Virus record (IMG/VR): IMGVR_UViG_3300035661_000054 | Strand: one strand, 5' to 3' | Source of the DNA: a virus | Length of the DNA: 64,000 nucleotides | In this document: one piece after another, positions 2,679 to 18,211 of the stretch | Layout of the letters: each line of letters starts with the position of its first letter | How positions within the stretch are numbered: the first letter of the stretch is position 1 | The notes under the pieces: model-generated | Database searches by the model: none | Seen by the model: the letters and a program-made list of their open reading frames with translations, nothing else | Told to the model about the DNA's origin: nothing | Translations under genes and position numbers: made by a program

Positions 2679-3425
2679 ATGTCTAATGTTTATTTTTGTT
2701 CTGACACTCATTTTGGTCATAGAAACATTCATAATTTTAGAAAGCAATTTTCTGATTCTTTTGAGCATGATGATTTTGTTTGCAACTCTATTTTGTCTGT
2801 TGTTAAAAAACGTGACACTTTATGGATTTTAGGTGATGTTTGTTTTGATTTATCTGCTTTTAACTATGTCAAGTTAATTGCAAGCAAGGTAAATCAATTA
2901 ATTATAGTTCCAGGTAATCATGATTTTGAAAAAGCTTGTGCGCCAAAAATTGAAGATTATTTATCTATTCCAAATGTTAAAATAAAGCCAATGACTGTTT
3001 ATAAGGGGTTTTGGGTTACTCATGCTCCTATTTATCCTTCAGAATTGCGTGGTAAGAGAAATATTCATGGTCATACACACTTTGACAATATTAATGATAA
3101 TAATTATTATAATGTATCTATGGAGAATATTAACTATAAACCAATATTATTCCAAGATTTGTTAGACAATATCAATGATTTTAAAAGAATAGATGAGCGA
3201 TTTAAGGCAAATTTTAAAGTAAAAATTAATTCTATTTATTTTGATGCTATTGATTTTTCAGCAAACGGTTTATCATTTAAATATAGTCATCATATTTTTA
3301 ATGTTGGTGATGTTGTTGATGTTTTATTGTGTTTTGGTGAGGAAGAATTATCGAAAAAATGTGAAATTATTAGTATTAAAACGAGCTTCGAACATGGTTA
3401 TCGCTATGGGTGTAAATTTGTTTAA
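2679..3425 (+). CDS. calcineurin-like metallophosphoesterase fused to C-terminal PilZ-like (c-di-GMP binding) domain
   Basis: Phosphoesterase motifs D-x-H (CSDTHFGH), GDxxD (GDVCFD), GNHD, GHTH; C-terminal RIDER..(RxxxR) and DFSANGLSF (D-x-S-x-x-G) PilZ-type motifs. Confidence 0.5.
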   Translation: MSNVYFCSDTHFGHRNIHNFRKQFSDSFEHDDFVCNSILSVVKKRDTLWILGDVCFDLSAFNYVKLIASKVNQLIIVPGNHDFEKACAPKIEDYLSIPNVKIKPMTVYKGFWVTHAPIYPSELRGKRNIHGHTHFDNINDNNYYNVSMENINYKPILFQDLLDNINDFKRIDERFKANFKVKINSIYFDAIDFSANGLSFKYSHHIFNVGDVVDVLLCFGEEELSKKCEIISIKTSFEHGYRYGCKFV

Positions 3426-3439
3426 TTAGAGGTTTACTT

Positions 3440-4453
3440 ATGATTAGGAATGATATAATTGCTGCAATAAAATTTATAGAAGATAATGGTTTGTCTTATA
3501 GTGTTGAAGTATTGTCTGTTTGTTGTGCTTTTTTAGAAGAAAATACTAACTTTGAATTAAAAGATAAAATAAATGTTTGTATTAATAATGGCACTCGATT
3601 GAATGATAATTTCATGAAAATACTTTTTTATAAAACATTTGTTGCTCCATCTGTGGATTTAAATGATGTTCAAGAATCTTTAAATGTTATAGATGAAATG
3701 ATTGAATCTGTAAGTGAAATTCATAAAGAAAATAAAAAAATTAATTCTAATATAGAACAAAAATTAAGTGAAGTTGCTTTAGAAAATCCTGTTCTTCACG
3801 TAGCTATAGCTGAAATCAGGGAGTCGGTTGACTCTTTAATGGTTAACTATTCTTCTGAAATAAAAGCTTTTGAAAGCTTTATTAATAAAGCAAAGAGAAT
3901 TAAATTAAAGTTATCTGAAAGTATTCTAAGTAAGAATATTGATTATTTGACGGGTTTAGGTAATATTGAATATCAAAGATTTATTATGAATGAAATTAAA
4001 AAAGAACTTCATTTAGAAAATAAATATTTTGCTTTAATAACATTGAAAAACTATAAAGATTATGAAGGTAATAAAACTCTTTATTTTTCTGTTATACGTG
4101 AGATAAAGAAAATGCTTGAACCTATTACTCATAAATCTTTTATAACGAGAGTAGATCATAATAAGTTTATGATTAATTTTTGTTCAGGTAATTTTTCTTT
4201 AGTGAGTGATTTTATTACTAAATTAGTCTCAGAACTTGAAAAAAAGAATTTAATCTATAAAGGAAACAATGAAAGAATTAGTAATTTAAAACTTAATGTG
4301 GTTTTTTATGAATTAAGGCAAGAAGATGAGTGTGATATTGTTTTGGATGAAATGTTTAAGCATTCTAATGTTGGTCATCGCTTCTTGAAGAAGTTTAAAA
4401 ATGATACTGTTTTTCTAAGTTTGGATAATACAAGAAGTTTTAGGCGGGTTTGA
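3440..4453 (+). CDS. degenerate (probably catalytically inactive) GGDEF-domain protein
   Basis: C-terminal half shows GGDEF-fold landmarks: DYLTGLGN (DxLTGLxNR-like), ALITLKNYKDYEG (D-x-D-x-FK-like), VDHNKF in place of GG(D/E)EF. Confidence 0.4.
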   Translation: MIRNDIIAAIKFIEDNGLSYSVEVLSVCCAFLEENTNFELKDKINVCINNGTRLNDNFMKILFYKTFVAPSVDLNDVQESLNVIDEMIESVSEIHKENKKINSNIEQKLSEVALENPVLHVAIAEIRESVDSLMVNYSSEIKAFESFINKAKRIKLKLSESILSKNIDYLTGLGNIEYQRFIMNEIKKELHLENKYFALITLKNYKDYEGNKTLYFSVIREIKKMLEPITHKSFITRVDHNKFMINFCSGNFSLVSDFITKLVSELEKKNLIYKGNNERISNLKLNVVFYELRQEDECDIVLDEMFKHSNVGHRFLKKFKNDTVFLSLDNTRSFRRV

Positions 4454-4497
4454 CTTATTAGAGATTTTTTGATATACTTGATATTAAGTTAAGTATA

Positions 4498-4526
4498 TTG
4501 AATTATTAGTAATTGTGTTGTATAAT
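4498..4526 (+). promoter_or_regulatory. candidate sigma70 promoter (TTGAAT-N17-TATAAT) for HDOD gene
   Basis: TTGAAT 4498-4503, TATAAT 4521-4526. Confidence 0.4.
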
Positions 4527-4550
4527 CACACATAATAGAGGTTAAACGTT

Positions 4551-5483
4551 ATGAGTAAAGTGCTTGCAAGTCATGCGATGTATGCTAAAAGAACCATCAT
4601 ACCAAGTGAGGGTTCTTTAAATATTAGTTGGAGGACAGAAGAAATTAAAAAGTCTATAGATTGGATGAATAATAAAAAAGATTTTCAATTCCCAGAAATG
4701 CCAGATGTTATGTTAAAAATATCTAATGAAATTCATGCTAAGTATCCTAACATTAACAATATTATTGCTTTAATTGAATCTAACCCAGTTTTATGTGGTG
4801 AGGTTATTGGTATCTTTTTAAGATTAGGGATTGATACAAATACTCAGAAAGTAATTACAATTGAATATATTATTTATTTAATAGGTTTAGAAAGAACTTA
4901 TGATATTGTAATGTCAGCATCTTTTAAACTAATTCCAATAAAAAATGAGTTTTTTGATAAAATATTGGATCACGTTGTTAATGTTTCTATTGCTTGTGCT
5001 AACATAGCTGGATTCATGAATAATGTTGTGATAGAAGAAGCCTATCTTTTTGGTATGTTTAAAGATAGTGGTTTTTTGCTCTTATCGACTCTTGATGATT
5101 TGAGCTTTAGAAAAGAATGGGAGTGTTCTTTATCGTTCCCAGGTTCTTATTCTAAACATAATAATAATAATAATAGTAATCATGAAATATTAAGTGTTAT
5201 TATGTCAAGAAAGTGGGGTATAGGTAAGACATCTTCTGGAGTTGATATATTGATTGCTATACAAGAACATCATAATGTTGAAGCAATTAATCAAATAAAA
5301 AATGATAAAGTAAGGACACTTATTGCCATTGGAATACTTGCTGAAGTTCTGGTTCTTGAAAATTTGAGTAAGTTTTATAAATCTACTGAAATTTTTACAC
5401 TAAAAGAAGAAATGATAAAGATATTAGATTTGAGTGAAAATATTGTTAATTCTGTCATCAGAAAAATAGTTAACGTAAAGTAA
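4551..5483 (+). CDS. HDOD-domain protein (HD-related output domain, c-di-GMP signalling associated)
   Basis: N-terminal FPEMPDVMLKISNEI...IIALIESNPVLCGEVIGIFLRLG pattern and later HVVNVSIACANIAGFM..EEAYLFGMFKDSGFLLL match the HDOD consensus. Confidence 0.5.
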   Translation: MSKVLASHAMYAKRTIIPSEGSLNISWRTEEIKKSIDWMNNKKDFQFPEMPDVMLKISNEIHAKYPNINNIIALIESNPVLCGEVIGIFLRLGIDTNTQKVITIEYIIYLIGLERTYDIVMSASFKLIPIKNEFFDKILDHVVNVSIACANIAGFMNNVVIEEAYLFGMFKDSGFLLLSTLDDLSFRKEWECSLSFPGSYSKHNNNNNSNHEILSVIMSRKWGIGKTSSGVDILIAIQEHHNVEAINQIKNDKVRTLIAIGILAEVLVLENLSKFYKSTEIFTLKEEMIKILDLSENIVNSVIRKIVNVK

Positions 5484-5500
5484 ACCCATTAAATGGGTTT
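5482..5500. terminator. bidirectional stem-loop terminator between convergent genes
   Basis: aaacccatttaaatgggttt perfect hairpin between 4551-5483(+) and 5499-6341(-). Confidence 0.6.
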
Positions 5501-6341
5501 ACTTAAAAACATGAATTAAATTTTCACTATCTTGTACTGTTTCTCCTAAATTATGAACTATTTTATTTCTTCCATTGTCCTTTGCTATATATAGCAAAGA
5601 ATCAGCTATTGAAAAGAATTCATTAAAATCTTTCTTTTCTTTTATCTCAATTAATCCACCACTTACTGTAACAATACCTGAATTGTTTTTAGCATGTTCT
5701 ATTGAGAGTGATTTGATTCTGTCTTGTAGTTTTTTAGAAAGATTGATAGCATCTTCTATCTTGTTTGTTTTAAATATAGAACAGAATTCCTCTCCGCCTA
5801 ATCTAAAAGAATAATCATTCTCTCTTTTAAATACGCCCAAAATTTCTTTGGCAATTTTTTGTAATACATTATCTCCACTTACATGACCATAAGTATCATT
5901 GTAAAGCTTAAAATTATCTACATCTATTAAAAGCATATTAATAAAATAGTTTTTATTTCTTAAACTGCTTAGAATTTCTTTATAAATAATATCTAAAAAT
6001 CTTCTATTATATAAAAGGGTTAAGTTATCTTTATAAGAAATTTCTTCAAGATTTTTTTGATAAGTAACATCATTTACAATAACTAATTTTTCGTTAGTTA
6101 TATAGTCAAAGTTAATAGAAAATTCATAAATTCTATCTTCAATATTTTCCATTAAATTTTCTTTATCTTTATTTAATTTAAAAAAATCATGTATTTCTCT
6201 TGCTAATAACTGATGACTTTTTGTTTTAAATTTCTTTTTCATTAATTCAATAAATTTTTTGCTATAGGTTGTTATTTCATTGTTTTTATTTAAAACACAG
6301 AACGAAATACTGCTTCCTAATATGCAATTTTTTTCAAACAT
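5499..6341 (-). CDS. PAS-like sensor / GGDEF diguanylate cyclase (active-site GGEEF)
   Basis: LTLLYNRRFLD (DxLTxLxNRR), LLIDVDNFKLYNDTYGHVSGD, RLGGEEF catalytic motif. Confidence 0.75.
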   Translation of the reverse strand: MFEKNCILGSSISFCVLNKNNEITTYSKKFIELMKKKFKTKSHQLLAREIHDFFKLNKDKENLMENIEDRIYEFSINFDYITNEKLVIVNDVTYQKNLEEISYKDNLTLLYNRRFLDIIYKEILSSLRNKNYFINMLLIDVDNFKLYNDTYGHVSGDNVLQKIAKEILGVFKRENDYSFRLGGEEFCSIFKTNKIEDAINLSKKLQDRIKSLSIEHAKNNSGIVTVSGGLIEIKEKKDFNEFFSIADSLLYIAKDNGRNKIVHNLGETVQDSENLIHVFK

Positions 6342-6478
6342 AATTTTACCTCCTCATTCCCTGAATGGAACTTTATATAAGATAATATAGTTAATTATGT
6401 TTGTTATAATGTTAAATGATTAAAAATATTGTTTAATAAAATGATTAATGTAAATTATTTTTCTTTATTTAGATTTTT

Positions 6479-6500
6479 AACCCCCTTAAATAAGGGGGTT
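6479..6500 (-). terminator. rho-independent terminator after htpX
   Basis: aacccccttaaataagggggtt hairpin immediately 3' of the minus-strand stop. Confidence 0.6.
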
Positions 6501-6504
6501 AGAA

Positions 6505-7377
6505 TTAGTTAAAAACATCTTCCAAATGTTTAACTCTTTTCTTTATAGGAGGGTGTGTCGAAAATAAAGATGATAAACCACCATTAATACCGAAAGCTTT
6601 TAATCCAGTTGGTAATTGACTTGCTTCATGCTGCATCTCCAAGGAAAGTAAAGCACTTTTCATAGCTTTAGGTGAAGTAAGTCTTGCACCACCTTCATCG
6701 GCTTTATACTCTCTGTATCTTGAGAAAGCAGAAGTTATAATGGCGGCAAGGAAACCAAGAATAAAATCTAATATAAATACAGTTATCGTGTATCCAATTC
6801 CTTGACCATTTTCATTTTTAAATATTACTTTATCTATAAAATAACCAATTACTCTTGATAAAAATATTACAAAAGTATTCATAACACCTTGTAATAAAGT
6901 CATAGTAACCATATCACCGTTATTAATGTGCGTCATCTCATGTCCTATGACAGATTCTATTTCATCCACATTTAAATGATTTAATAGTCCTGTACTAACT
7001 GCAACCAATGAGTTATTTTTAGAATAACCTGTAGCAAAGGCGTTTATATCAGAAGATTCATATATGGCAATTTCAGGTGTTTTAATATTTAAATCTTTAG
7101 CCATTCTCTCTACAGTTGATTTTAGCCATCTTTCCGCTTCACTTCGTGGGTTTTCAATAACTACAGCACCCGTAGTCCATTTGGCTACTTTTTTGGAAAT
7201 AAGTAACGAAAATATTGATCCAGTAAAGCCAAATATTAGCGCAAAAAAGAATAGATTTTTATAATCAAGACCAGACTTAGTTATGTAGTTTCCTATTCCT
7301 AATAAATTTAAAGAAAGCATACCTATAGCAATAACAGCTATATTTGTTAATAAAAACAATGAAATTCTTTTAAACAT
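6505..7377 (-). CDS. htpX: HtpX-like M48 zinc metalloprotease (membrane)
   Basis: N-terminal TM helices, HEMTHINNGD (HExxH) zinc site, overall M48/HtpX architecture with second TM pair. Confidence 0.8.
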   Translation of the reverse strand: MFKRISLFLLTNIAVIAIGMLSLNLLGIGNYITKSGLDYKNLFFFALIFGFTGSIFSLLISKKVAKWTTGAVVIENPRSEAERWLKSTVERMAKDLNIKTPEIAIYESSDINAFATGYSKNNSLVAVSTGLLNHLNVDEIESVIGHEMTHINNGDMVTMTLLQGVMNTFVIFLSRVIGYFIDKVIFKNENGQGIGYTITVFILDFILGFLAAIITSAFSRYREYKADEGGARLTSPKAMKSALLSLEMQHEASQLPTGLKAFGINGGLSSLFSTHPPIKKRVKHLEDVFN

Positions 7378-8349: not shown

Positions 8350-8967
8350 ATGAAAAAAATTTTAAATATTGGTTTTTTGTGTGTTGGATTAATGAGTGCA
8401 GGTCTTGCTCAAGCTGAACAAAAAGATCTAAATTTGTCTGCTGGGGTTGGTTACAATCCAATTAACGGTTTTGAGTTAAAAGGTAGATATGATATTAATA
8501 ATTATTGGTCTGTACAGGGTTCTTATGGGACTGGGTTTTCTTTAAGTGATTCTGGTAGTTCTAATGGCGATCAATATAACTATGAAGTAAACTTAAAACA
8601 ATCTAATATTGGTGTTGCTTTTCACCCGTTTTCTGGTTCTTTCTATGTTAAAGCTGGATATGTAATCGGTGATTCATACCTAAAAGGAAGAACTCAAAAT
8701 ATTCAGGGTAGTGGTATAGGTGCAGATGTTCGAATTAATTTAGAACAAAGCTTCATGGGTACTATCGGTTGGGTTGGTAGAAGTAAAGGGTTATCATATC
8801 AAGCAGAGGTTGGGTTAATTTCTACAACAGCAAAACTTGATAGTTTTAACACAACTGGTTCAGTCGATCAAGCTGTTATTGATAATGCAAAAGCAGACGT
8901 AGTGAAAGGATTGGCTAATATTAGTTATTTGCCAACAGCTTCTTTAGCAGTTACTTATAATTTCTAA
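8350..8967 (+). CDS. putative outer-membrane beta-barrel protein
   Basis: Signal peptide MKKILNIGFLCVGLMSAGLAQA; alternating amphipathic strands rich in G/Y/S/N; C-terminal ...LAVTYNF ending in aromatic residue typical of OMPs. Confidence 0.5.
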   Translation: MKKILNIGFLCVGLMSAGLAQAEQKDLNLSAGVGYNPINGFELKGRYDINNYWSVQGSYGTGFSLSDSGSSNGDQYNYEVNLKQSNIGVAFHPFSGSFYVKAGYVIGDSYLKGRTQNIQGSGIGADVRINLEQSFMGTIGWVGRSKGLSYQAEVGLISTTAKLDSFNTTGSVDQAVIDNAKADVVKGLANISYLPTASLAVTYNF

Positions 8968-9430: not shown

Positions 9431-10498
9431 TTATTTCCCACTTATCAAATTTCCAAATTGAGAAAAAATATCACTACCCATTTGAATTATCGATTGAGTC
9501 GTTGTTTGAGGAGCTTGTTCTTTCGATTGATCTATCACTTGAGGAACTTGTTCTACAGTTTGAGCTACAGTTTGAGCTATTGTTTGAGGAACTTGTTCTT
9601 TCGATTGATTTATCACTTGAGGAACTTGTTCTACAGTTTGAGCTACAGTTTGAGCTATTGTTTGAGGAACTTGTTCTTTTGATTGAACTATCGCTTGAGG
9701 AACTTGTTCTACAGTTTTAGCCACAGTTTGAGCTATTGTTTGAGGAACTTGTTCTTTCGCTTGAGATACTTGATCTTTAGCTTGAGCTACCACTTGAGAT
9801 GCTTGGTCTTTCATTTTAGCACCAGCTTGAGCTACTTGGTCTTTAATTTTAGCACCAGTTTGAGCTATTTGGTTTTTCAAAGATGTTACATCACTCATTA
9901 CTTCATTCAATTTTTCACCAAACTCTGATTTAATTTTTTCAGGAATTTGCGAAGCAGTTGAAGCATATTTATCTTTTTCAGCTTTCAATTTATCTGAAAT
10001 ATTTTTTTCTTTTTTAATTTCTTCAGAAAGTAGTGTTTTTTGTTCTTCTATTTGAGTTAAAGTTTCTTTAATCTCTGTTTTTCCTTCCTGACTTTTTCTG
10101 TAAACAGCATCTTTTGCACCAAGCTCTTTAAGTTTGTCTTCTAACTCAGATATTTTAGGTTGATATTTTGCAGTAATATCAGCAATTCCTTGTTTCATAT
10201 CAGTTGTTACTTTTAAAATAGCATCTTTATATTTTTTATTTTCTTCATCAGAAAGTGTTTTTTGAGCTTGTTTTACTTCTTGGTTTAATGTCATAAATTC
10301 TTTATATTTTGAAGAATATTCTTTATTTAGGTCATTTAATTTTTGTTTTAAAATTGAAGAAGTTTCAGTTGTTGAATCAACAGATGAAGCTGCACCTGGG
10401 GTGATTGAATTTGTTTTATAGGTATCTGTATTAGCAGATGCTATATTTAAACCAAACAATGCGGTGACGATTGATAATGATAATAATTTTTTTTTCAT
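9431..10498 (-). CDS. secreted coiled-coil protein with 26-aa tandem repeats (EQVPQTIAQTVAQTV...)
   Basis: Signal peptide MKKKLLSLSIVTALFGLNIASA; long K/E/Q-rich heptad-like sequence; three near-identical C-terminal repeats. Confidence 0.6.
   Translation of the reverse strand: MKKKLLSLSIVTALFGLNIASANTDTYKTNSITPGAASSVDSTTETSSILKQKLNDLNKEYSSKYKEFMTLNQEVKQAQKTLSDEENKKYKDAILKVTTDMKQGIADITAKYQPKISELEDKLKELGAKDAVYRKSQEGKTEIKETLTQIEEQKTLLSEEIKKEKNISDKLKAEKDKYASTASQIPEKIKSEFGEKLNEVMSDVTSLKNQIAQTGAKIKDQVAQAGAKMKDQASQVVAQAKDQVSQAKEQVPQTIAQTVAKTVEQVPQAIVQSKEQVPQTIAQTVAQTVEQVPQVINQSKEQVPQTIAQTVAQTVEQVPQVIDQSKEQAPQTTTQSIIQMGSDIFSQFGNLISGK
9506..9760. repeat. 78-bp direct tandem repeats (3 copies plus degenerate) inside CDS 9431-10498
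   Basis: tgaggaacttgttctttcgattgat.tatcacttgaggaacttgttctacagtttgagctacagtttgagctattgtt repeated at 9506, 9584, 9662. Confidence 0.85.
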
Positions 10499-11524: not shown

Positions 11525-11866
11525 TTGTGCTATTCTTTAAAGGAGTTATTCATGTGTAACGACTGCAATAATTTAGGTGAAGAAGATAAAGAGATTGATA
11601 TTGGAATTATTTTAGAAGAGCTTGATAATTTAACAGATGTTGAACTATCAAATCATCCTAAATTGAATTATTATATCAATACACTGAAAGATTTAATACC
11701 TTATGATTCTTATTGTCAATGTCCTCATGTGATGCCTCCGTGCTATCACTGTGAGAATTTTCAAAGGCAATCTTATGAGTTGGAGCGATTGATTAAAGTG
11801 AAAAAAGGCACTTCTAAATCAGTCATAGAACAAAATATTGAAGATATTTATTTAAATATTTTTTAA
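11525..11866 (+). CDS. small Cys-motif protein (paralogue of next gene)
   Basis: CQCPHVMPPCYHCENF and conserved C-terminus IEDIYLNIF shared with 11878-12228. Confidence 0.45.
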   Translation: MCYSLKELFMCNDCNNLGEEDKEIDIGIILEELDNLTDVELSNHPKLNYYINTLKDLIPYDSYCQCPHVMPPCYHCENFQRQSYELERLIKVKKGTSKSVIEQNIEDIYLNIF

Positions 11867-11877
11867 AAGAGGCTTTT

Positions 11878-12228
11878 ATGGAAGAGTTTAAAAAAGAAAT
11901 CATTTATTTTGGATCTTTTTCAAAAGATGAGTACAAAAAGAAAGCCAGGTTAATTTATAATGAATTAAACAAGCTTTCTGATGAACAAATTATGGAACTT
12001 GAGAATGTCGATATAGTTATAGAGAATTTTTATAACTCTATTTCTTACTTTGGCCCTTGTCGTTGCAAAGATGGAAATTCTTGCCGTTTTCATAAATTTT
12101 TAAACAAACAACTGACTTTAAAAGGAAGGTTGAAAGATATTAAAAAGAAAATTGAACAAAAAGCTACCGATGAATTTATATCAGTAGTTGAAAAAAACAT
12201 AAGAGATATTTCTTTAAATATTTTTTAG
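11878..12228 (+). CDS. small Cys-motif protein (paralogue of previous gene)
   Basis: CRCKDGNSCRFHKF and C-terminus IRDISLNIF. Confidence 0.45.
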   Translation: MEEFKKEIIYFGSFSKDEYKKKARLIYNELNKLSDEQIMELENVDIVIENFYNSISYFGPCRCKDGNSCRFHKFLNKQLTLKGRLKDIKKKIEQKATDEFISVVEKNIRDISLNIF

Positions 12229-12633: not shown

Positions 12634-12718
12634 GGGCTTGTGGTGGAACGGTATACACGTTAGTCTTAGAAACTAATGCCTTTTAGGATTGAGAGTTCAA
12701 GTCTCTCCAGGCCCACCA
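12634..12718 (+). tRNA. tRNA-Leu (anticodon TAG), long variable arm, CCA encoded
   Basis: Acceptor gggcttg/caggccc, anticodon arm ttagt-cttagaa-actaa, T-loop ttcaagt. Confidence 0.8.
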
Positions 12719-12761
12719 AAAAATCTTTTAAGGATTTAATGATTTCCTTTAAGGATTAAAT

Positions 12762-12835
12762 AAGGGGTTGATGTAATGGTAGCATAAGGGATTCCAAATC
12801 CTTTTGTATGGGTTCAAGTCCTATGCCCTTTGCCA
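12762..12835 (+). tRNA. tRNA-Trp (anticodon CCA)
   Basis: Anticodon arm aggga-ttccaaa-tcctt; T arm atggg-ttcaagt-cctat; 3' gcca. Confidence 0.75.
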
Positions 12836-12904
12836 AATTAAAGTGTTTGACAATGCTAAATGGTTTTGTTATAATACTTAAAAATCCTTAGAAATAAGGT
12901 AAAT

Positions 12905-12988
12905 GTCAGGGTGGTGGAACGGTATACACATCAGACTTAAAATCTGACGCTTTCGAGATTGAGGGTTCAAGTCCCTCCTCTGATACCA
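12905..12988 (+). tRNA. tRNA-Leu (anticodon TAA), long variable arm
   Basis: Anticodon arm tcaga-cttaaaa-tctga; D arm identical to Leu(TAG) copy; 3' acca. Confidence 0.75.
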
Positions 12989-13226
12989 AATTTGACACAG
13001 TTTTGTAAGTGTGTTATAATAAATGTCATGTAATAGGCCGTTATGTTGACAAAAAATAGCGAACCTCACTACCGTAGGGTGGGTGTTTAAGAATACAGGT
13101 AAAATATACTGAACTACGGACTAATTTCATACCAACCTTTGAAACTTTCGGTGCTAAAAGGATTGTGTAAAGTTAAAGAAATGTTAGGAATTGAGTACTA
13201 TTGATTTTCTTTAAAACCGTAAAATG

Positions 13227-13309
13227 TAGGGGTGGCAGAGTGGTTGAATGCACCTGACTGTAAATCAGGCTCTTAGGACACGTAGGTTCAAATCCTACCC
13301 CTTACACCA
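13227..13309 (+). tRNA. tRNA-Tyr (anticodon GTA), long variable arm
   Basis: Acceptor gtagggg/cccttac, anticodon arm cctga-ctgtaaa-tcagg, T arm gtagg-ttcaaat-cctac. Confidence 0.8.
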
Positions 13310-13400
13310 GAATTGTGGTTCAGTTACTTTGAGAGAAATTTTATTTTTACTGAACCCAGAATGCTCCTCAAAATCCTCCTTATTTGGGTTGAGCTTCTGA

Positions 13401-13474
13401 CCTTGATAAATAACAGCCTTTACGTGGCTTCAAGGATAAGTAGGATTTAAAAATCTGAAACCAATGTTATTAAG
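13401..13474 (+). repeat. inter-tRNA repeat element copy 1 (ccttgataaataacagcctttacgtggcttcaagg + ggatttaaaaatc hairpin)
   Basis: One of 8 related copies between tRNA genes. Confidence 0.8.
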
Positions 13475-13496
13475 AATGTATGGTATATGATTAAAG

Positions 13497-13570
13497 TGGT
13501 GTTGGTGTAATGCAGTAGACTTTTAATCTGTTGATTGATGGTTCGAGTTCATTTTATTCCGCCAGATTTG
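13497..13570 (+). pseudogene. tRNA-Lys(TTT)-like pseudogene (D-arm deletion, poor acceptor/T stems)
   Basis: Shares gtaatgcag.agacttttaatctgttgattgatggttcga with intact tRNA-Lys at 14300 but lacks about 6 nt of D arm and CCA-proximal pairing. Confidence 0.4.
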
Positions 13571-13737
13571 ATCTTTAAAATTGTAAGGAACTTGGCTATA
13601 GTTTTTAAGTATGTTGTAGTAAGGTATTGGGGGTATTTGCTTTAAATGTTTGTTTAATGCGCTTACATTGTTGTTCATTATATGCCTTATAAAATAGGAA
13701 TAATAACACTTGGTAAAAATAATTAAAGTATTAGGAG

Positions 13738-14031
13738 ATGTCATTAATGAATGCGCAACGAAAATATAACAAACTAAAGAAAAGACTTGGTATTGCTAAA
13801 GAATCTATCATTCATCAAATGATTTTGTTATATGGTGATACTAACTTAGCGTATGGTAAAGCGTATACTATTCTAAAGAAATTAACTACTAAAGTCTTAA
13901 AGGAAGTTAAACCTGAAATACTTGATGATGAATACGAGTTTAATAAACATTATTGTAAGAATCAAGTTTATGTTAATTTGAAGCATAGAGGTTTTTCTAA
14001 AATTAAATCAAAATACTTTAGAATTAGATGA
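13738..14031 (+). CDS. hypothetical small basic protein embedded in tRNA array
   Basis: 97-aa ORF with aggag RBS; start may be second ATG at 13747. Confidence 0.3.
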   Translation: MSLMNAQRKYNKLKKRLGIAKESIIHQMILLYGDTNLAYGKAYTILKKLTTKVLKEVKPEILDDEYEFNKHYCKNQVYVNLKHRGFSKIKSKYFRIR

Positions 14032-14040
14032 ATAAGAAAT

Positions 14041-14114
14041 GCGGGATTGATGTAGTGGTAACATGCTATCCTTCCAAGTTGGTCTCAACGGTTCGAATCC
14101 GTTATCCCGCTCCA
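14041..14114 (+). tRNA. tRNA-Gly (anticodon TCC)
   Basis: Acceptor gcgggat/atcccgc perfect; loop c-t-TCC-a-a; anticodon stem has U30-U40 mismatch. Confidence 0.65.
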
Positions 14115-14115
14115 A

Positions 14116-14188
14116 CCATAATTAATAACGGCCTTTACGTGGCTTTAGGGATAAGTAGGATTTAAAAATCTGAAACCAATGTTATTAA
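14116..14188 (+). repeat. inter-tRNA repeat element copy 2
   Basis: ccataattaataacggcctttacgtggctttagggataagtaggatttaaaaatctgaaaccaatgttattaag. Confidence 0.8.
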
Positions 14189-14256
14189 GAATGTAGAGTA
14201 TGTGATTAAAGTAATCCTGCGGTAAGGGATAATGTTTTGATTCTTTATGTTCTTTG

Positions 14257-14285
14257 TTGACATTATTATTTCTTTGAAGTATAAT
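14257..14285 (+). promoter_or_regulatory. sigma70-type promoter TTGACA-N17-TATAAT upstream of tRNA-Lys
   Basis: TTGACA 14257-14262, TATAAT 14280-14285. Confidence 0.55.
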
Positions 14286-14299
14286 GTAAATAAATTAAA

Positions 14300-14374
14300 G
14301 GGGTGGTAGCATAATGGTAATGCAGCAGACTTTTAATCTGTTGATTGATGGTTCGACTCCATCTCATCCCACCA
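14300..14374 (+). tRNA. tRNA-Lys (anticodon TTT)
   Basis: Acceptor ggggtgg/tcatccc, anticodon arm gcaga-cttttaa-tctgt, T arm gatgg-ttcgact-ccatc. Confidence 0.8.
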
Positions 14375-14489
14375 AATTAAATGTTATCAAATGGCTTAAC
14401 ATTTGACGTTTCAATTCATAACGAAAGAATTGACTATGATAGGTAAAGAGAATAGAGTTCCGTAGATCCTATCCTAACTACGGTAAATT

Positions 14490-14565
14490 GCGTGATTGAT
14501 GTTTAATGGTAGCATGTTGTCCTTCCAAGTCAATCGTAGCGGTTCGAATCCGCTATCACGCTCCA
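14490..14565 (+). tRNA. tRNA-Gly (anticodon TCC), second copy
   Basis: Acceptor gcgtgat/atcacgc perfect; same cttccaa loop and same U30-U40 mismatch. Confidence 0.65.
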
Positions 14566-14566
14566 A

Positions 14567-14640
14567 CCCTAATTAATAATAGCCTTTACGTGGCTTTAGG
14601 GATAAGTAAGATTGAGAAAATCTGAAACTAATATTATTAA
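14567..14640 (+). repeat. inter-tRNA repeat element copy 3 (compensatory stem ccctaa/ttaggg)
   Basis: ccctaattaataatagcctttacgtggctttagggataagtaagattgagaaaatctgaaactaatattattaa. Confidence 0.8.
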
Positions 14641-14641
14641 T

Positions 14642-14729
14642 GGAATCGTGGCAGAGCGGTTGAATGCAACGGTCTTGAAAACCGTCGAGGGTAATACCTC
14701 CGTGAGTTCGAATCTCACCGATTCCGCCA
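14642..14729 (+). tRNA. tRNA-Ser (anticodon TGA), long variable arm
   Basis: Acceptor ggaatcg/cgattcc, anticodon arm acggt-cttgaaa-accgt, T arm with ttcgaat. Confidence 0.85.
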
Positions 14730-14795
14730 AATAAATTTGACATATTTATTTTTATTTGTTATAATTCACAAATATGATAATTTAGTCAATTAAAT

Positions 14796-14870
14796 TGGTG
14801 TGTGGCGCAGCGGTAGCGCAGCGGACTGTTAATCCGTTGGTCGTAGGTTCGAATCCTACCATACCAGCCA
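14796..14870 (+). tRNA. tRNA-Asn (anticodon GTT)
   Basis: Acceptor tggtgtg/catacca, D arm gcgc-agcggta-gcgc, anticodon arm gcgga-ctgttaa-tccgt. Confidence 0.8.
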
Positions 14871-14871
14871 A

Positions 14872-14916
14872 CTCTCAAAATAGAACTGGCCTTTATGTGG
14901 CTTGAGAGATAAGTAG
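14872..14916 (+). repeat. inter-tRNA repeat element copy 4 (partial; compensatory stem ctctcaa/ttgagag)
   Basis: ctctcaaaatagaactggcctttatgtggcttgagagataagtag. Confidence 0.7.
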
Positions 14917-15221
14917 TTTGCGATTGTCTTTTTGAATGGCAATTCTAACGAAACCAACAGTTTAGAGTGTGGTAAGCTCGATAGGTTAATGTTAAGCCTA
15001 ATAATGGATAAGAAGGATACTCCAATCCAGATAATTAATTAATGTATTAATTTAGTAACAATCAGGGTAATCCAGATGTTTTAGTCTCGCAAAACGATAA
15101 CAGTTACAACTGTCGAGAATAAATTATTGTTTTTTAATTTGATTAATGAATGAGTTAGATTTGATCACTAATGAGTTTATTGTGGAACTATAGTTTAAAA
15201 GCCTTCAATAACATAAATAAT

Positions 15222-15297
15222 TGCAGAGTAGTAGCAGTGGTAGCTCGTCAGCCTCATAAGCTGAAGGTCGGTGGTTCGAATCCATCCTCTGCGTCCA
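15222..15297 (+). tRNA. tRNA with anticodon CAT (Met elongator, initiator or lysidine-modified Ile2)
   Basis: Acceptor tgcagag/ctctgcg, anticodon arm tcagc-ctcataa-gctga perfect, T arm ggtgg-ttcgaat-ccatc. Confidence 0.8.
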
Positions 15298-15355
15298 AAA
15301 TATTTAGTTAGCTACAGTGATTCAATAATTATTGTAAAAATAATTATAAAAACTA

Positions 15356-15384
15356 TTGACAAATAGAAAAATATGTTTTATAAT
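15356..15384 (+). promoter_or_regulatory. sigma70-type promoter TTGACA-N17-TATAAT
   Basis: TTGACA 15356-15361, TATAAT 15379-15384. Confidence 0.55.
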
Positions 15385-15436
15385 TATTTTATGTTTTTGC
15401 TTAAGTTTTTAAGCGTTATTTTAAAGGAAGAAGAAA

Positions 15437-15562
15437 ATGAACAAAGCTCATATTAATTTTATTAGTGTTGATTTTACAGCTCAAGCTGTAAGCTTTGTTA
15501 CGCCTATGGAATTTGCTATGCCTCAAGCGCAGACTGAGATTAGCGAAAAAGGGACGGGTTGA
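15437..15562 (+). CDS. small ORF (41 aa, MNKAHINFISVDFTAQAVSFVTPMEFAMPQAQTEISEKGTG) with own promoter and terminator inside tRNA array
   Basis: RBS aaggaag 7 nt upstream of ATG; promoter 15356-15384; terminator 15590-15617; not in ORF track because <60 aa. Confidence 0.3.
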   Translation: MNKAHINFISVDFTAQAVSFVTPMEFAMPQAQTEISEKGTG

Positions 15563-15589
15563 TAATACTTCTTTAATTAGATTTTATTT

Positions 15590-15617
15590 AAAACCCGCCA
15601 TTAAAGCGGGTTTTTTT
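15590..15617 (+). terminator. rho-independent terminator
   Basis: aaaacccgccattaaagcgggttttttt. Confidence 0.7.
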
Positions 15618-15620
15618 ATA

Positions 15621-15690
15621 CCTTGATAAATAACAGCCTTTACGTGGCTTCAAGGATAAGTAGGATTAAAATCCGAAACTAATGTTATTA
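15621..15690 (+). repeat. inter-tRNA repeat element copy 5
   Basis: ccttgataaataacagcctttacgtggcttcaaggataagtaggattaaaatccgaaactaatgttattaaa. Confidence 0.8.
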
Positions 15691-15696
15691 AATCGT

Positions 15697-15772
15697 GGGG
15701 TTATGGTATAAATGGCTAACACAGTACCCTTGCAAGGTACAGTTCTGAGTTCGATGCTCAGTGGCTCCACCA
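15697..15772 (+). tRNA. tRNA-Ala (anticodon TGC) with G3-U70
   Basis: Acceptor ggggtta/tggctcc gives G3:U70 wobble; anticodon arm gtacc-cttgcaa-ggtac perfect; T arm ctgag-ttcgatg-ctcag. Confidence 0.8.
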
Positions 15773-15778
15773 AAAAAT

Positions 15779-15854
15779 TGTTTCTTAGCTCAGTTGGTAG
15801 AGCATTCGGCTGATAACCGAAAGGTCACTGGTTCAAATCCAGTAGAAACAACCA
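15779..15854 (+). tRNA. tRNA-Ile (anticodon GAT)
   Basis: Acceptor tgtttct/agaaaca, D arm gctc-agttggtag-agc, anticodon arm ttcgg-ctgataa-ccgaa. Confidence 0.85.
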
Positions 15855-15855
15855 T

Positions 15856-15931
15856 CAGTATGTAGGGAAGTTGGTATCCCACTTGATTTGGATTCAAGAG
15901 ATCGTAGGTTCGAGTCCTACCATACTGACCA
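15856..15931 (+). tRNA. tRNA-Pro (anticodon TGG)
   Basis: Acceptor cagtatg/catactg perfect, anticodon arm cttga-tttggat-tcaag, T arm gtagg-ttcgagt-cctac. Confidence 0.85.
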
Positions 15932-15938
15932 AAAATTT

Positions 15939-16015
15939 GTCTCCTTCGACTATGTTGGTTAGGTCATTACTCTCTCAGGGTGAAAAGATGGGATCGTCGC
16001 CCATAGGAGACTCCA
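15939..16015 (+). tRNA. tRNA-Glu variant (anticodon CTC)
   Basis: Acceptor gtctcct/aggagac perfect; anticodon arm ttact-ctctcag-ggtga; paralogue of Glu(TTC) at 16259; unusual T loop atcgtcg. Confidence 0.6.
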
Positions 16016-16022
16016 AATAAAT

Positions 16023-16099
16023 GGTTAATTAGCTCAGTTGGTTAGAGCGTTTCACTCATAACGAAAAGGTCGGTGGTTCAATTCCACCATTAACCACCA
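16023..16099 (+). tRNA. tRNA with anticodon CAT (second copy; Met or Ile2)
   Basis: Acceptor ggttaat/attaacc perfect; loop c-t-CAT-a-a; A31-C39 mismatch at base of anticodon stem. Confidence 0.75.
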
Positions 16100-16101
16100 A
16101 A

Positions 16102-16173
16102 CCTTGATGAATAACAGCCTTTACGTGGCTTCAAGGATAAGTAGGATTAAAATCCGAAACTAATGTTGTTAAA
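16102..16173 (+). repeat. inter-tRNA repeat element copy 6
   Basis: near-identical to copy 5. Confidence 0.8.
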
Positions 16174-16177
16174 TCGT

Positions 16178-16253
16178 GGGGTTATGGTATAAATGGCTAA
16201 CACAGTACCCTTGCAAGGTACAGTTCTGAGTTCGATGCTCAGTGGCTCCACCA
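16178..16253 (+). tRNA. tRNA-Ala (anticodon TGC), duplicate
   Basis: Identical to 15697-15772. Confidence 0.8.
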
Positions 16254-16258
16254 AAAAA

Positions 16259-16335
16259 GTCTCCTTCGACTATGTTGGTTAGGTCATCACCCTTTCAAGG
16301 TGAAGAGATGGGATCGTCACCCATAGGAGACGCCA
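16259..16335 (+). tRNA. tRNA-Glu (anticodon TTC)
   Basis: Acceptor gtctcct/aggagac; anticodon arm tcacc-ctttcaa-ggtga perfect. Confidence 0.75.
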
Positions 16336-16342
16336 AATAAAT

Positions 16343-16419
16343 GGTTAATTGGCTAAGTTGGTTAGAGTGTTTCACTCATAACGAAAAGGTCGGTGGTTCA
16401 ATTCCACTATTAACAACCA
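16343..16419 (+). tRNA. tRNA with anticodon CAT (third copy; diverged, G1-A72 mismatch)
   Basis: Same anticodon arm as 16023 copy; D arm changed (ggctaagttggttagagtg); 3' acceptor attaaca leaves position 1-72 unpaired. Confidence 0.6.
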
Positions 16420-16421
16420 AA

Positions 16422-16490
16422 CCTTGATGAATAACAGCCTTTACGTGGCTTCAAGGATAAGTAGGATTAAAATCCGAAACTAATGTTATT
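16422..16490 (+). repeat. inter-tRNA repeat element copy 7
   Basis: ccttgatgaataacagcctttacgtggcttcaaggataagtaggattaaaatccgaaactaatgttatt. Confidence 0.8.
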
Positions 16491-16493
16491 GAA

Positions 16494-16581
16494 GGAAGAT
16501 TGTCAGAGTGGTCTATTGTGCTTCTTTGCTAAAGAAGTGGGTTTAATCGCCCCACAGGTTCGAATCCTGTATCTTCCGCCA
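16494..16581 (+). tRNA. tRNA-Ser (anticodon GCT), long variable arm
   Basis: Acceptor ggaagat/atcttcc, anticodon arm cttct-ttgctaa-agaag, variable arm tgggtttaatcgcccca. Confidence 0.85.
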
Positions 16582-16583
16582 AT

Positions 16584-16657
16584 TCAGGGATCGTCTAATG
16601 GTAGGACACGAGACTTTGATTCTCGGTATTGTGGTTCGACTCCATGTCCCTGAGCCA
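16584..16657 (+). tRNA. tRNA-Gln (anticodon TTG)
   Basis: Acceptor tcaggga/tccctga perfect, anticodon arm cgaga-ctttgat-tctcg perfect. Confidence 0.8.
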
Positions 16658-16658
16658 T

Positions 16659-16733: not shown

Positions 16734-16737
16734 ACTT

Positions 16738-16811: not shown

Positions 16812-16813
16812 AA

Positions 16814-18201: not shown

Positions 18202-18211
18202 GGTGTTTCTT

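What the first reader, a model, noticed from the sequence alone, without database searches (positions are those of the whole stretch)
2679..7377. Contiguous c-di-GMP signalling module on a phage-like genome
Five adjacent genes read as a c-di-GMP signalling set. They are a PilZ-like domain fused to a metallophosphoesterase, a GGDEF-fold protein with a degenerate active site (VDHNKF), an HDOD protein, a PAS-GGDEF cyclase with intact GGEEF and DxLTxLxNRR motifs, and an HtpX-type membrane protease. Second-messenger turnover modules are normally chromosomal. On a phage they would suggest manipulation of host motility or biofilm state, or use of c-di-GMP as a cue for infection decisions. The PilZ-phosphoesterase fusion is not an architecture I recognise.
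Basis: partly seen in the sequence, partly recalled or inferred. Interest (0 to 1): 0.8.

Follow-up and report, generated by a model that had tools for sequence, protein, structure and literature searches.

The report
Phage-borne c-di-GMP writer and reader genes
A large uncultured phage carries side by side an apparently active c-di-GMP synthase, a c-di-GMP-binding PilZ domain fused to a common phage phosphoesterase, an inactive synthase look-alike and an HDOD protein, which suggests, without biochemical proof, that the phage both makes and reads this bacterial second messenger.

Summary
All five ORFs exist at the stated coordinates.

- 2679-3425: intact metallophosphoesterase plus a C-terminal PilZ domain (Pfam above cut-off; RxxxR and DxSxxG invariant).
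- 4551-5483: HDOD.
- 5499-6341: GGDEF cyclase with GGEEF and an RxxD I-site. The PAS call is weak.
- 6505-7377: HtpX.

The context is clearly phage (rIIB, SSB, 24 tRNAs, tmRNA, T4-type nucleic-acid enzymes). All five genes are under purifying selection. The block recurs in related metagenomic phage contigs in varying composition.

Two points are overstated. "Turnover" is not supported, because no EAL or HD-GYP was found. HtpX and HDOD are linked to c-di-GMP only by neighbourhood or association.

Phage GGDEF genes are already annotated elsewhere. PilZ gave no significant match, and HDOD only one marginal one (E 5e-3), in 50,697 phage records. The PilZ-phosphoesterase fusion is confined to this lineage, and one relative has lost it by deletion.

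Best reading: a phage-encoded c-di-GMP writer plus a phage-encoded reader that gates a conserved phage enzyme. This is a new variant of a known kind, and it is untested.

The parts
2679..3425 (+). Metallophosphoesterase-PilZ fusion (248 aa). The phosphoesterase is roughly residues 1-160 (nt 2679-3158). The PilZ domain is residues 168-247 (nt 3180-3419).
   Evidence: Pfam Metallophos 38.2 bits and PilZ 23.6 bits, above the 22.5 cut-off. PilZ alone scores 27.1 bits. phrog_547 'phosphoesterase' matches residues 1-173 at E 7e-47. The metal-site motifs DTH, GD, GNHD, H115 and GHTH are read in the sequence; most of these residues (D9, H11, G52, D53, G79, N80, H81, H115, G131, H132, H134) are invariant across the family. 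RxxxR and DxSxxG are invariant in five cluster members. dN/dS against L015 is 0.05 for the phosphoesterase part and 0.16 for the PilZ part.
3440..4453 (+). Orphan protein 'p2' (337 aa): a small N-terminal helical domain, a long coiled coil (about residues 74-165), and a catalytically dead GGDEF-fold domain (about residues 166-310; DHNKF in place of GGEEF; no RxxD).
4551..5483 (+). HDOD-domain protein (310 aa). It is divergent: the usual HD dyad reads KD.
   Evidence: Pfam HDOD 37.6 bits, E 2e-9. The L015 ortholog scores 40.1 bits over 185 of 196 model positions. dN/dS 0.23. Only one marginal tblastn match in 50,697 phage records.
5480..5502 (.). Perfect 10-bp inverted repeat (GTAAACCCAT-TAA-ATGGGTTTAC) that spans the stop codons of the convergent HDOD and cyclase genes. 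Candidate bidirectional terminator.
   Evidence: Read directly in the sequence. It was not picked up by the consensus terminator scan, so its function is inferred.
5499..6341 (-). Diguanylate cyclase (280 aa): a PAS-like N-terminal region (about residues 1-95) and a GGDEF domain (residues 103-260) with GGEEF, an RxxD I-site (R173-D176) and an Asp at the guanine-specificity position.
   Evidence: Pfam GGDEF 122.3 bits. TIGR00254 143.9 bits. Alignments to the solved cyclases DosC and WspR keep the catalytic residues. I-site and A-site are conserved in L015 and L013. PAS_9 is only 18.3 bits, below its cut-off, but PAS-GGDEF homologues cover about 90% of the length. dN/dS 0.21.
6505..7377 (-). HtpX-type M48 membrane zinc protease (290 aa). 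It neighbours the c-di-GMP genes and is probably an independent moron.
   Evidence: NCBIfam HtpX equivalog 382 bits, cut-off 245. Peptidase_M48 142.6 bits. A hairpin lies at about 6479-6500 and the cyclase has its own ribosome-binding site. HtpX is absent from L013, where the cyclase is present. Best cellular matches are 42-46% identical.

Best explanation
This is an accessory (moron) cluster of a large T4-like phage that gives the phage its own c-di-GMP signalling. The model below separates what is shown from what is inferred.

- Writer (inferred from intact catalytic, specificity and product-inhibition motifs): the PAS-like GGDEF protein at 5499-6341 makes c-di-GMP from GTP in the infected cell.
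- Reader (domain and both binding motifs shown; binding itself inferred): the PilZ domain on the C-terminus of a widely conserved phage metallophosphoesterase (2679-3425) binds c-di-GMP.
- Output (inferred): c-di-GMP binding switches or relocates the phosphoesterase. A routine phage enzyme would thereby become dependent on the c-di-GMP level, whether phage-made or host-made.
- Accessory proteins (weakly inferred): the coiled-coil protein with a dead GGDEF domain (3440-4453) and the HDOD protein (4551-5483) are non-enzymatic. They may partner or poison GGDEF dimers, or act as an adaptor in the way the HDOD protein SadB does.
- Side effect (inferred from general c-di-GMP biology): phage-made c-di-GMP would also push host c-di-GMP outputs such as motility, surface structures and matrix.

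HtpX is a neighbouring membrane-maintenance moron, not part of the circuit. There is no recognisable c-di-GMP-degrading enzyme, so this is synthesis plus reception rather than turnover.
For: Domain evidence:
- Domains and motifs.
- GGDEF fold of p2.
- Phage context.
- All genes are under purifying selection, dN/dS 0.05-0.23.

Enrichment: these c-di-GMP-associated domains are rare in phages. GGDEF occurs in 100 of 50,697 records, many of doubtful phage status. HDOD has one marginal hit. PilZ has none that is significant. Yet here four such proteins are adjacent.

Evolutionary linkage:
- The phosphoesterase with a convergent GGDEF gene next to it is also found in a relative whose phosphoesterase is only 61% identical (L013).
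- The full block recurs in L015 with an extra p2 paralogue.
- The phosphoesterase family is widespread in phages without PilZ: 1,374 records, and 81 homologues in 80 metagenomic loci with no extension over 51 residues. PilZ is therefore a regulatory add-on.
- In L012 the PilZ coding part was removed by small deletions that took out both binding motifs. The 3' 120 nt remain as non-coding DNA and the phosphoesterase stays intact.
- What is probably the same genotype has a +1 frameshift in the N-terminal region of the cyclase. This pattern is expected if reader and writer work together.
Against: - No biochemistry exists for any of these proteins.
- The spacing between RxxxR and DxSxxG is 17 residues, shorter than the roughly 20-27 I recall for characterised PilZ domains (recalled, not checked here).
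- The substrate of the phosphoesterase is unknown.
- p2 lacks both the A-site and the I-site, so it need not touch c-di-GMP at all. Its most distant relative (P0019) sits on a contig with no Pfam-annotated neighbours.
- HDOD binding of c-di-GMP is contradicted for P. aeruginosa SadB (PMC12075610).
- The region is a variable insertion hot spot: a type I secretion cassette and a homing-type endonuclease are inserted in relatives. Some of the adjacency could therefore be accidental.
- L012 and L046 are separate contigs, so the co-decay of PilZ and the cyclase in one genome is plausible but not proven. The frameshift lies in a T-run and leaves the GGDEF domain intact.
- The host is unknown, so host c-di-GMP biology cannot be specified.
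Confidence: 0.5

Rival explanations
1. Two independent uses of c-di-GMP. The cyclase exists only to reprogramme the host, for example to stop motility, remodel surface receptors for superinfection exclusion, or hold the cell in a matrix. The PilZ domain reads the host's pre-existing c-di-GMP level as a cue to the host's lifestyle. The two are not wired to each other.
For: The cyclase occurs without PilZ, p2 or HDOD in L013, so it has a function on its own. The cyclase retains an I-site, which caps its output as in cellular cyclases. The two genes lie on opposite strands in separate transcription units.
Against: The PilZ fusion is found only in genomes that also carry the cyclase next to it. 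The variant that lost PilZ is probably the one with the frameshifted cyclase.
Confidence: 0.2
2. No module at all. The genes are unrelated morons that accumulated in a hypervariable slot downstream of rIIA-rIIB-SSB, and their shared c-di-GMP flavour reflects what the host offers for capture.
For: The slot is plastic. Relatives carry an ABC/HlyD/TolC cassette, a second p2 copy, or an RRXRR-type endonuclease here. HtpX, an outer-membrane barrel protein and a secreted repeat protein lie alongside. The window holds many other host-like genes.
Against: Four adjacent proteins with domains that are each rare or absent in phages are hard to get by chance. PilZ is fused in frame to a core phage enzyme rather than captured as a host gene. 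p2 is not a host gene, since only three clusters exist in 1.84 billion representatives. All genes are under purifying selection. No cellular locus with this order was found.
Confidence: 0.15
3. Counter-defence. The PilZ-phosphoesterase captures and/or hydrolyses a cyclic (oligo)nucleotide used by host immunity or signalling, acting as a substrate-recruiting domain plus a phosphodiesterase. The GGDEF proteins perturb nucleotide-based defence signalling.
For: Metallophosphoesterases include cyclic-nucleotide phosphodiesterases (established knowledge). There is a weak similarity to an 'anti-phage phosphoesterase' model, though far below its cut-off (20.5 versus 420 bits). If the fusion degraded c-di-GMP, the set would be a true turnover module.
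Against: None of the five proteins has a significant PADLOC match; only HtpX gives two marginal ones (E about 4e-3). The same phosphoesterase family is conserved in over 1,300 phages without PilZ, so its core role does not depend on c-di-GMP. The cyclase has the Asp typical of c-di-GMP makers rather than the Ser of cGAMP-making variants (sequence plus established knowledge). A phage that both makes and destroys the same signal from adjacent genes needs extra assumptions.
Confidence: 0.1

Closest known systems
GGDEF diguanylate cyclases annotated in other phage genomes (Bacillus phage G gp350, Bacillus phage SP-15, Escherichia phage vB_EcoS-683R6; PHROG families such as phrog_5594; virus-borne mucR/yhjH in metagenomes, PMC11295528)
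   Same: A phage genome carries a GGDEF-domain gene with an apparently intact active site.
   Different: Identity is at most 38%. In this search the known cases appear as single GGDEF genes; I did not inspect their neighbourhoods. Here the cyclase sits with a PilZ receptor, a dead GGDEF paralogue-like protein and an HDOD protein. To my knowledge none of the known cases has been characterised functionally.
Diguanylate cyclases on other mobile elements (SXT/R391 ICE DgcK and DgcL; plasmid-borne GGDEF/EAL genes; the VSP-2 island phosphodiesterase, PMC12607878)
   Same: A mobile element adds c-di-GMP enzymes to the host network and thereby alters motility or biofilm behaviour. The ICE and plasmid cases rest on my own knowledge; the VSP-2 case is known to me only from that paper's title and abstract.
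   Different: Those elements are maintained in living hosts and rely on host receptors. Here the carrier looks like a lytic T4-like phage and it brings its own receptor, fused to a phage enzyme.
PilZ-domain c-di-GMP effectors fused or attached to an output (YcgR, BcsA, Alg44, PlzD)
   Same: A canonical PilZ with RxxxR and D/NxSxxG is joined to an output module that it is expected to regulate allosterically.
   Different: The output is a calcineurin-type metallophosphoesterase of a phage family (nearest solved relative is Aquifex aq_1665, PDB 1xm7). I know of no described PilZ-metallophosphoesterase, and none appeared among the homologues searched. No global search by domain architecture was possible.
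Degenerate GGDEF domains used as non-catalytic modules (FimX, LapD, PelD-type receptors)
   Different: The known degenerate domains usually keep an I-site or work beside an EAL domain. p2 has neither. It is a coiled-coil-GGDEF-only protein of an orphan phage family.
Phage proteins that interfere with host c-di-GMP or PilZ pathways (the YfiN-binding peptide Tip, PMC8085984; PlzR binding PilZ, PMC11461919)
   Same: Phages target the host's c-di-GMP network to change surface behaviour.
   Different: Those are small binders of host proteins. Here the phage encodes the signalling domains themselves.
HDOD proteins such as SadB
   Same: An HDOD domain is genetically associated with c-di-GMP-controlled surface behaviour. 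SadB acts as a proteolysis adaptor (PMC12075610).
   Different: The phage protein has no YbaK domain. It is very divergent, with no match to solved structures by sequence, and its HD dyad reads KD.

Membership tests
PilZ domain, c-di-GMP-binding type (PF07238) | Profile match at or above the curated cut-off | tested here: met
   23.6 bits in the full protein and 27.1 bits for the isolated domain, against a cut-off of 22.5. The L015 ortholog scores 22.9.
PilZ domain, c-di-GMP-binding type (PF07238) | RxxxR switch and D/NxSxxG motif | tested here: met
   R170-IDE-R174 and D192-F-S194-AN-G197 are invariant in five cluster members. The 17-residue spacing is shorter than I recall for characterised PilZ domains.
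PilZ domain, c-di-GMP-binding type (PF07238) | Six-stranded beta-barrel fold | not tested
There is no sequence-level match to solved PilZ structures.
PilZ domain, c-di-GMP-binding type (PF07238) | Binds c-di-GMP | not testable with these tools
   Needs a binding assay.
Calcineurin-like metallophosphoesterase (PF00149) | Profile match and the five metal-site motifs (DxH, GD, GNHD/E, H, GHxH) | tested here: met
   38.2 bits against a cut-off of 21.5. D9, H11, G52, D53, G79, N80, H81, H115, G131, H132 and H134 are invariant across 14 family members; D82 is nearly invariant.
Active diguanylate cyclase (GGDEF, PF00990 / TIGR00254) | Profile match above the cut-off | tested here: met
   122.3 bits (cut-off 23.8) and 143.9 bits (cut-off 37.4).
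Active diguanylate cyclase (GGDEF, PF00990 / TIGR00254) | GG(D/E)EF A-site, metal-binding Asp, guanine-specificity Asn/Asp, and phosphate-binding Lys/Arg | tested here: met
   G182-G-E-E-F186, D140, N148, D157, K254 and R258 were read in the alignments to DosC and WspR. All are invariant in three phage orthologs. The residue roles were assigned from my knowledge of PleD.
Active diguanylate cyclase (GGDEF, PF00990 / TIGR00254) | RxxD inhibitory site five residues upstream of GGEEF (optional feature) | tested here: met
   R173-E-N-D176. R173 and D176 are invariant in L015 and L013.
Active diguanylate cyclase (GGDEF, PF00990 / TIGR00254) | Makes c-di-GMP from GTP | not testable with these tools
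   Needs an enzyme assay.
PAS sensor domain (N-terminus of the cyclase) | Profile match above the cut-off | tested here: not met
   PAS_9 scores 18.3 bits against a cut-off of 27, E 0.003. The support is indirect: PAS-GGDEF proteins align over about 90% of the query. It is best called PAS-like.
GGDEF fold, degenerate (p2, 3440-4453) | GGDEF-domain fold | tested here: met
GGDEF fold, degenerate (p2, 3440-4453) | Sequence membership of PF00990 | tested here: not met
   No Pfam GGDEF hit for any of four family members, even at E up to 10.
GGDEF fold, degenerate (p2, 3440-4453) | Catalytic signature or I-site | tested here: not met
   DHNKF, SRNSF or D-NRF stand in place of GGEEF. There is no RxxD upstream, and the metal-binding Asp is replaced.
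HDOD domain (PF08668) | Profile match above the cut-off | tested here: met
   37.6 bits against a cut-off of 22.9. The L015 ortholog scores 40.1 bits.
HDOD domain (PF08668) | Role in c-di-GMP signalling or binding | not testable with these tools
   The literature is contradictory: binding is reported for P. fluorescens SadB (PMC6543031) and absent for P. aeruginosa SadB (PMC12075610).
HtpX protease (NF003965) | Equivalog score above the cut-off, with the HExxH motif | tested here: met
   382 bits against a cut-off of 245. HEMTH is read at residues 146-150.
Complete c-di-GMP turnover module (synthesis plus degradation) | An EAL or HD-GYP phosphodiesterase is present | tested here: not met
   Nearly every window ORF of 180 aa or more was scanned against Pfam, and none has an EAL or HD-GYP hit. 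Only 64 kb of a larger genome was visible.

The most novel reading that the evidence does not exclude
The phage uses c-di-GMP as its own intracellular second messenger. A phage cyclase, possibly gated by its PAS-like domain and by the dead-GGDEF and HDOD partners, writes the signal. A PilZ domain that the phage lineage grafted onto a conserved phage phosphoesterase reads it. This would be the first virus-encoded, self-contained c-di-GMP writer-reader circuit, with a previously undescribed PilZ-metallophosphoesterase effector.
Probability: 0.35. Interest if true: 0.8.

Novelty: new variant of a known kind. Interest (0 to 1): 0.62.

Why it matters
c-di-GMP is the main bacterial switch between motile and attached life. 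Phages have so far mostly been seen as victims of that switch or as indirect manipulators of it.

A phage that carries both a synthase and a receptor wired to one of its own enzymes would show that viruses can run bacterial second-messenger logic internally. That could serve to time a step of infection, to sense whether the host is in a biofilm, or to remodel the host surface.

The finding also gives a concrete, small and testable system: two soluble proteins of 248 and 280 residues. It offers a natural experiment as well, because a relative has deleted exactly the PilZ motifs. Finally, it may be a handle on the unknown function of a phosphoesterase family present in more than a thousand sequenced phages.

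Tried and rejected
- Near-identical DNA in 50,697 phage records and 72,556 plasmids: only tRNA matches. The window's lineage is not among deposited phages.
- IMG/VR scans with the cyclase and the fusion: only distant loci, with the phosphoesterase alone.
- Single-sequence AlphaFold model of p2: pLDDT 45, unusable. It was replaced by a 4-sequence model.
- Profile search of p2 and of the PilZ domain against PDB sequences: nothing. The HDOD protein also found nothing meaningful there.
- First hhalign of p2 against a 3-sequence GGDEF alignment: only 20-46% probability. A 120-sequence profile was needed.
- 'Host-derived island of cellular gene order': rejected. None of 30 cellular HtpX loci has the other genes nearby, identities to cellular homologues are at most 51%, and the block's GC equals that of the rest of the window.
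- Defence-system identity: no significant PADLOC hits.
- c-di-GMP riboswitch near the genes or anywhere in the window: none.
- Promoter scan: fewer sigma-70-like sites than in shuffled sequence (44 versus 52.8), so no operon inference was drawn from it.
- Sample and host identification through accession strings in the literature: nothing found. The host remains unknown. Homologue names point loosely to Arcobacteraceae, Sulfuricurvum and Thiomicrorhabdus, while the tmRNA matches a betaproteobacterial-type permuted model. These hints do not agree.

Full report
**What is in the sequence**

Each is taken in turn.

Gene 1 (2679-3425, 248 aa) is a fusion.
- It matches Pfam Metallophos at residues 4-160 and PilZ at residues 168-247. 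The PilZ match is just over the curated cut-off, 23.6 against 22.5 bits.
- The C-terminal 90 residues alone score 27.1 bits, E 5.4e-6, and the 92%-identical ortholog on L015 also passes.
- The two hallmark c-di-GMP-binding motifs are present: R170-IDE-R174 and D192-F-S-A-N-G197. They are invariant in all five members of the 90% cluster, all of which are 248 aa and come from several independent assemblies. The fusion is therefore not an assembly artefact.
- The phosphoesterase half keeps the DxH, GD, GNHD, H and GHxH metal-site residues.

Gene 2 (3440-4453, 337 aa, here called 'p2') has no hit in Pfam, NCBIfam or PHROGs.
- A full HMMER pass over 1.84 billion representative proteins found only three clusters, so it is an orphan family.
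- A single-sequence structure prediction failed, with pLDDT 45.
- A 4-sequence alignment made only of family members gave a moderate model, pLDDT 66.5. It shows a small helical head, a long coiled coil and an alpha/beta domain.
- hhalign of the family against a profile of 120 GGDEF proteins gave 86% probability, E 5e-6. It aligns DYLTGLGN with DxLTxLxNRR and RVDHNKF with RLGGEEF.
- The signature, the metal-binding Asp and the RxxD site are all lost across the family.

Gene 3 (4551-5483) is a divergent HDOD protein, 37.6 bits.

Gene 4 (5499-6341, minus strand) is a bona fide GGDEF protein, 122 and 144 bits.
- Aligned to the solved cyclases DosC and WspR it keeps the catalytic and substrate residues.
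- It has GGEEF and an RxxD I-site five residues upstream, conserved in two orthologs.
- Its N-terminal region is only PAS-like: 18.3 bits, below the cut-off. Full-length homologues, however, are PAS-GGDEF proteins.

Gene 5 (6505-7377, minus strand) is an HtpX protease, 382 bits to the equivalog model.

**Context**

The window is phage.
- rIIB and SSB lie directly upstream.
- A 23-gene tRNA array, a further tRNA-Cys and a tmRNA are present.
- PhoH, RnlA, polynucleotide kinase, an ExoV/Dda helicase, a gp47-like exonuclease, NAMPT and other genes follow.
- GC is about 28% throughout, including the block.
- There is no close DNA relative among deposited phages or plasmids.

The exact proteins occur on metagenomic contigs, the longest about 70 kb.

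**Transcription layout**

MPE-PilZ, p2 and HDOD run rightward after a hairpin that follows SSB. The cyclase and HtpX run leftward.

The HDOD and cyclase stop codons sit inside a perfect 10-bp inverted repeat at 5480-5502. A second hairpin, and a separate strong ribosome-binding site for the cyclase, lie between HtpX and the cyclase.

**Relatives**

Four variants of the locus were recovered.
- L015: MPE-PilZ, p2, a 33%-identical p2 paralogue, HDOD, then the convergent cyclase and HtpX. Proteins are 84-94% identical to the window.
- L012: rIIA-rIIB-SSB, then an inserted ABC/HlyD/TolC cassette, then a 172-aa phosphoesterase without PilZ, then p2. A DNA alignment shows that the spacer between the phosphoesterase and p2 still contains the last ~120 nt of the PilZ coding sequence. 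Small deletions removed the part that encodes RxxxR and DxSxxG. PilZ was therefore lost here, not gained elsewhere.
- L046/L047: p2 paralogue, HDOD, cyclase, HtpX, about 94% identical in DNA to the window. One extra T in a T7 run splits the cyclase into 54-aa and 230-aa products. L046 comes from the same sample as L012. The tail of L012 and the end of L046 look like the two ends of an RRXRR-type endonuclease gene (identified by eye), so they are plausibly one genotype. This is not proven.
- L013: a more distant relative, with 61% phosphoesterase identity. It has rIIA-rIIB-SSB-phosphoesterase and then a convergent 244-aa GGDEF gene, 38% identical to the window's and with intact motifs. It has no PilZ, p2, HDOD or HtpX.

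The phosphoesterase-cyclase adjacency is thus the oldest layer. PilZ, p2 and HDOD were added in a sub-lineage.

All genes are under purifying selection between the window and L015. dN/dS ranges from 0.05 to 0.23, and the PilZ part is 0.16.

**Rarity**

- The phosphoesterase domain occurs in 1,374 phage records, usually annotated as phosphoesterase or Ser/Thr phosphatase.
- The PilZ part has no significant match in any of 50,697 phage records.
- Only one of 15 homologue clusters carries PilZ.
- In 80 metagenomic loci with the phosphoesterase (405 kb in total), none has a C-terminal extension longer than 51 residues, and none has a GGDEF, HDOD, p2 or HtpX relative nearby.
- HDOD has one marginal hit among phage records.
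- GGDEF genes occur in about 100 phage records, some of doubtful phage status, at no more than 38% identity. Several PHROG families match it. Virus-borne mucR and yhjH have been reported from viromes (PMC11295528). A phage cyclase alone is therefore not new.

**Not a cellular island**

The best cellular HtpX matches are 42-46% identical, and none of those 30 loci has the other genes nearby. The best cellular cyclase matches are 43-51% identical over the GGDEF domain.

**What is missing**

No EAL or HD-GYP domain was found in any window ORF scanned; nearly every ORF of 180 aa or more was covered. There is no second GGDEF or PilZ ORF. There is no c-di-GMP riboswitch. There are no significant defence-system matches.

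**Mechanism**

*Shown:*
- An intact-looking cyclase gene.
- A canonical-looking PilZ fused to an intact-looking phage phosphoesterase.
- A dead GGDEF-fold protein and an HDOD protein between them.
- Conservation, purifying selection and lineage-specific gain and loss of these parts.

*Inferred:*
- The cyclase makes c-di-GMP in infected cells.
- The PilZ domain binds c-di-GMP and gates the phosphoesterase.
- p2 and HDOD modulate the circuit.
- Host c-di-GMP outputs are affected as a by-product or as a second purpose.

The likely co-decay of PilZ and the cyclase's N-terminal region in one variant fits a functional coupling, but the evidence is weak.

HtpX looks like part of a separate theme of membrane-maintenance genes. 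The window also encodes PspA/IM30 and an SPFH protein.

HDOD's relation to c-di-GMP is unsettled in the literature. Binding is reported for P. fluorescens SadB (PMC6543031). For P. aeruginosa SadB no binding was found, and an adaptor role in proteolysis was shown instead (PMC12075610).

**Verdict**

HtpX is probably unrelated, and HDOD is only circumstantially tied to c-di-GMP.

It is a new variant of a known kind. Phage GGDEF genes are known, while the phage-borne PilZ receptor fused to a phage phosphoesterase, and the accompanying orphan dead-GGDEF protein, appear undescribed.

Interest is moderate to high, because the hypothesis is specific and cheap to test. It stays a bioinformatic inference with an unknown host and an unknown phosphoesterase substrate.

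Noticed in passing
window 51709-52036 (+), with tRNA-Cys at 52043-52119: The phage carries a tmRNA that matches the permuted (two-piece) models: beta_tmRNA 131 bits and tmRNA_permuted 112 bits. ARAGORN reads the tag peptide as ANDENFAIAA. ARAGORN's tmRNA call overlaps the start of a tRNA-Cys. A permuted tmRNA on a phage is unusual, and its type does not obviously agree with the Campylobacterota-like affinities of HtpX and the cyclase.
   Followed up: partly
window 12634-17040 (+): An array of 23 tRNA genes in 4.4 kb. It includes three tRNA-Met(CAT), and two each of Leu, Gly, Ala, Glu and Ser. This points to a large genome with its own translation support.
   Followed up: no
window 6505-7377 (-), 25540-26196 (+), 42291-43118 (+): Three membrane-homeostasis genes lie on one phage fragment: HtpX protease, PspA/IM30 (78 bits) and an SPFH/Band 7 protein (61 bits). 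This suggests that the phage manages host membrane stress, independently of the c-di-GMP genes.
   Followed up: partly
L012 5645-9920: A close relative has a complete type I secretion cassette inserted between SSB and the phosphoesterase: an ABC transporter, a HlyD/AprE-type adaptor and a TolC-like OEP. This is exactly where the window has only an intergenic region.
   Followed up: partly
L012 11743-11936 and L046 12609-13226: An arginine-rich protein that looks RRXRR/HNH-like by eye (N-terminus LQSRRAIRRRRRN...) is inserted between p2 and its paralogue in one variant. It resembles a homing-type endonuclease, and it shows that the locus is a mobile-DNA target. Pfam gave no hit for the C-terminal fragment.
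   Followed up: partly
L046 about 9850-10014, L047 likewise; corresponds to window about 6190: One extra T in a T7 run frameshifts the N-terminal PAS-like region of the cyclase. The 230-aa product was seen on four contigs from different sources. It could be real decay, slippage-prone regulation or a homopolymer error.
   Followed up: partly
L015 1870-2877 and L046 11656-12612: A second copy of the orphan dead-GGDEF protein, 33% identical to p2, lies between p2 and HDOD in relatives but is absent from the window. The family is duplicating and being lost within this lineage. A third, 28%-identical member (P0019, L048) sits on a contig with no Pfam-annotated neighbours.
   Followed up: partly
window 8350-8967 (+) and 9431-10498 (-): An outer-membrane beta-barrel protein with a signal peptide, and a 355-aa secreted or lipoprotein-like protein with tandem repeats (EQVPQTIAQTVAQTV...), follow the block. 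Both are host-envelope-directed morons. The repeat protein differs in length in relatives (455 aa in L046).
   Followed up: no
window 17371-18201 (+) and 18185-18988 (+): A second, NinI-like metallophosphoesterase (phrog_246) overlaps the start of a DNA/RNA non-specific endonuclease (Endonuclease_NS, 147 bits). The phage therefore has two different calcineurin-type phosphoesterases.
   Followed up: no
window 11525-11866 (+) and 11878-12228 (+): Two adjacent paralogous small proteins of 113 and 116 aa have Cys-rich motifs and near-identical C-terminal tails (...NIEDIYLNIF and ...NIRDISLNIF). Neither has a Pfam hit.
   Followed up: partly
window 24158-25399, 37013-39608, 53240-53848: A set of host-like metabolic genes: glutathionylspermidine synthase, NAMPT with an adjacent phosphoribosyltransferase-domain protein, and a weak match to an NMN transporter. 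This looks like an NAD-salvage theme.
   Followed up: no
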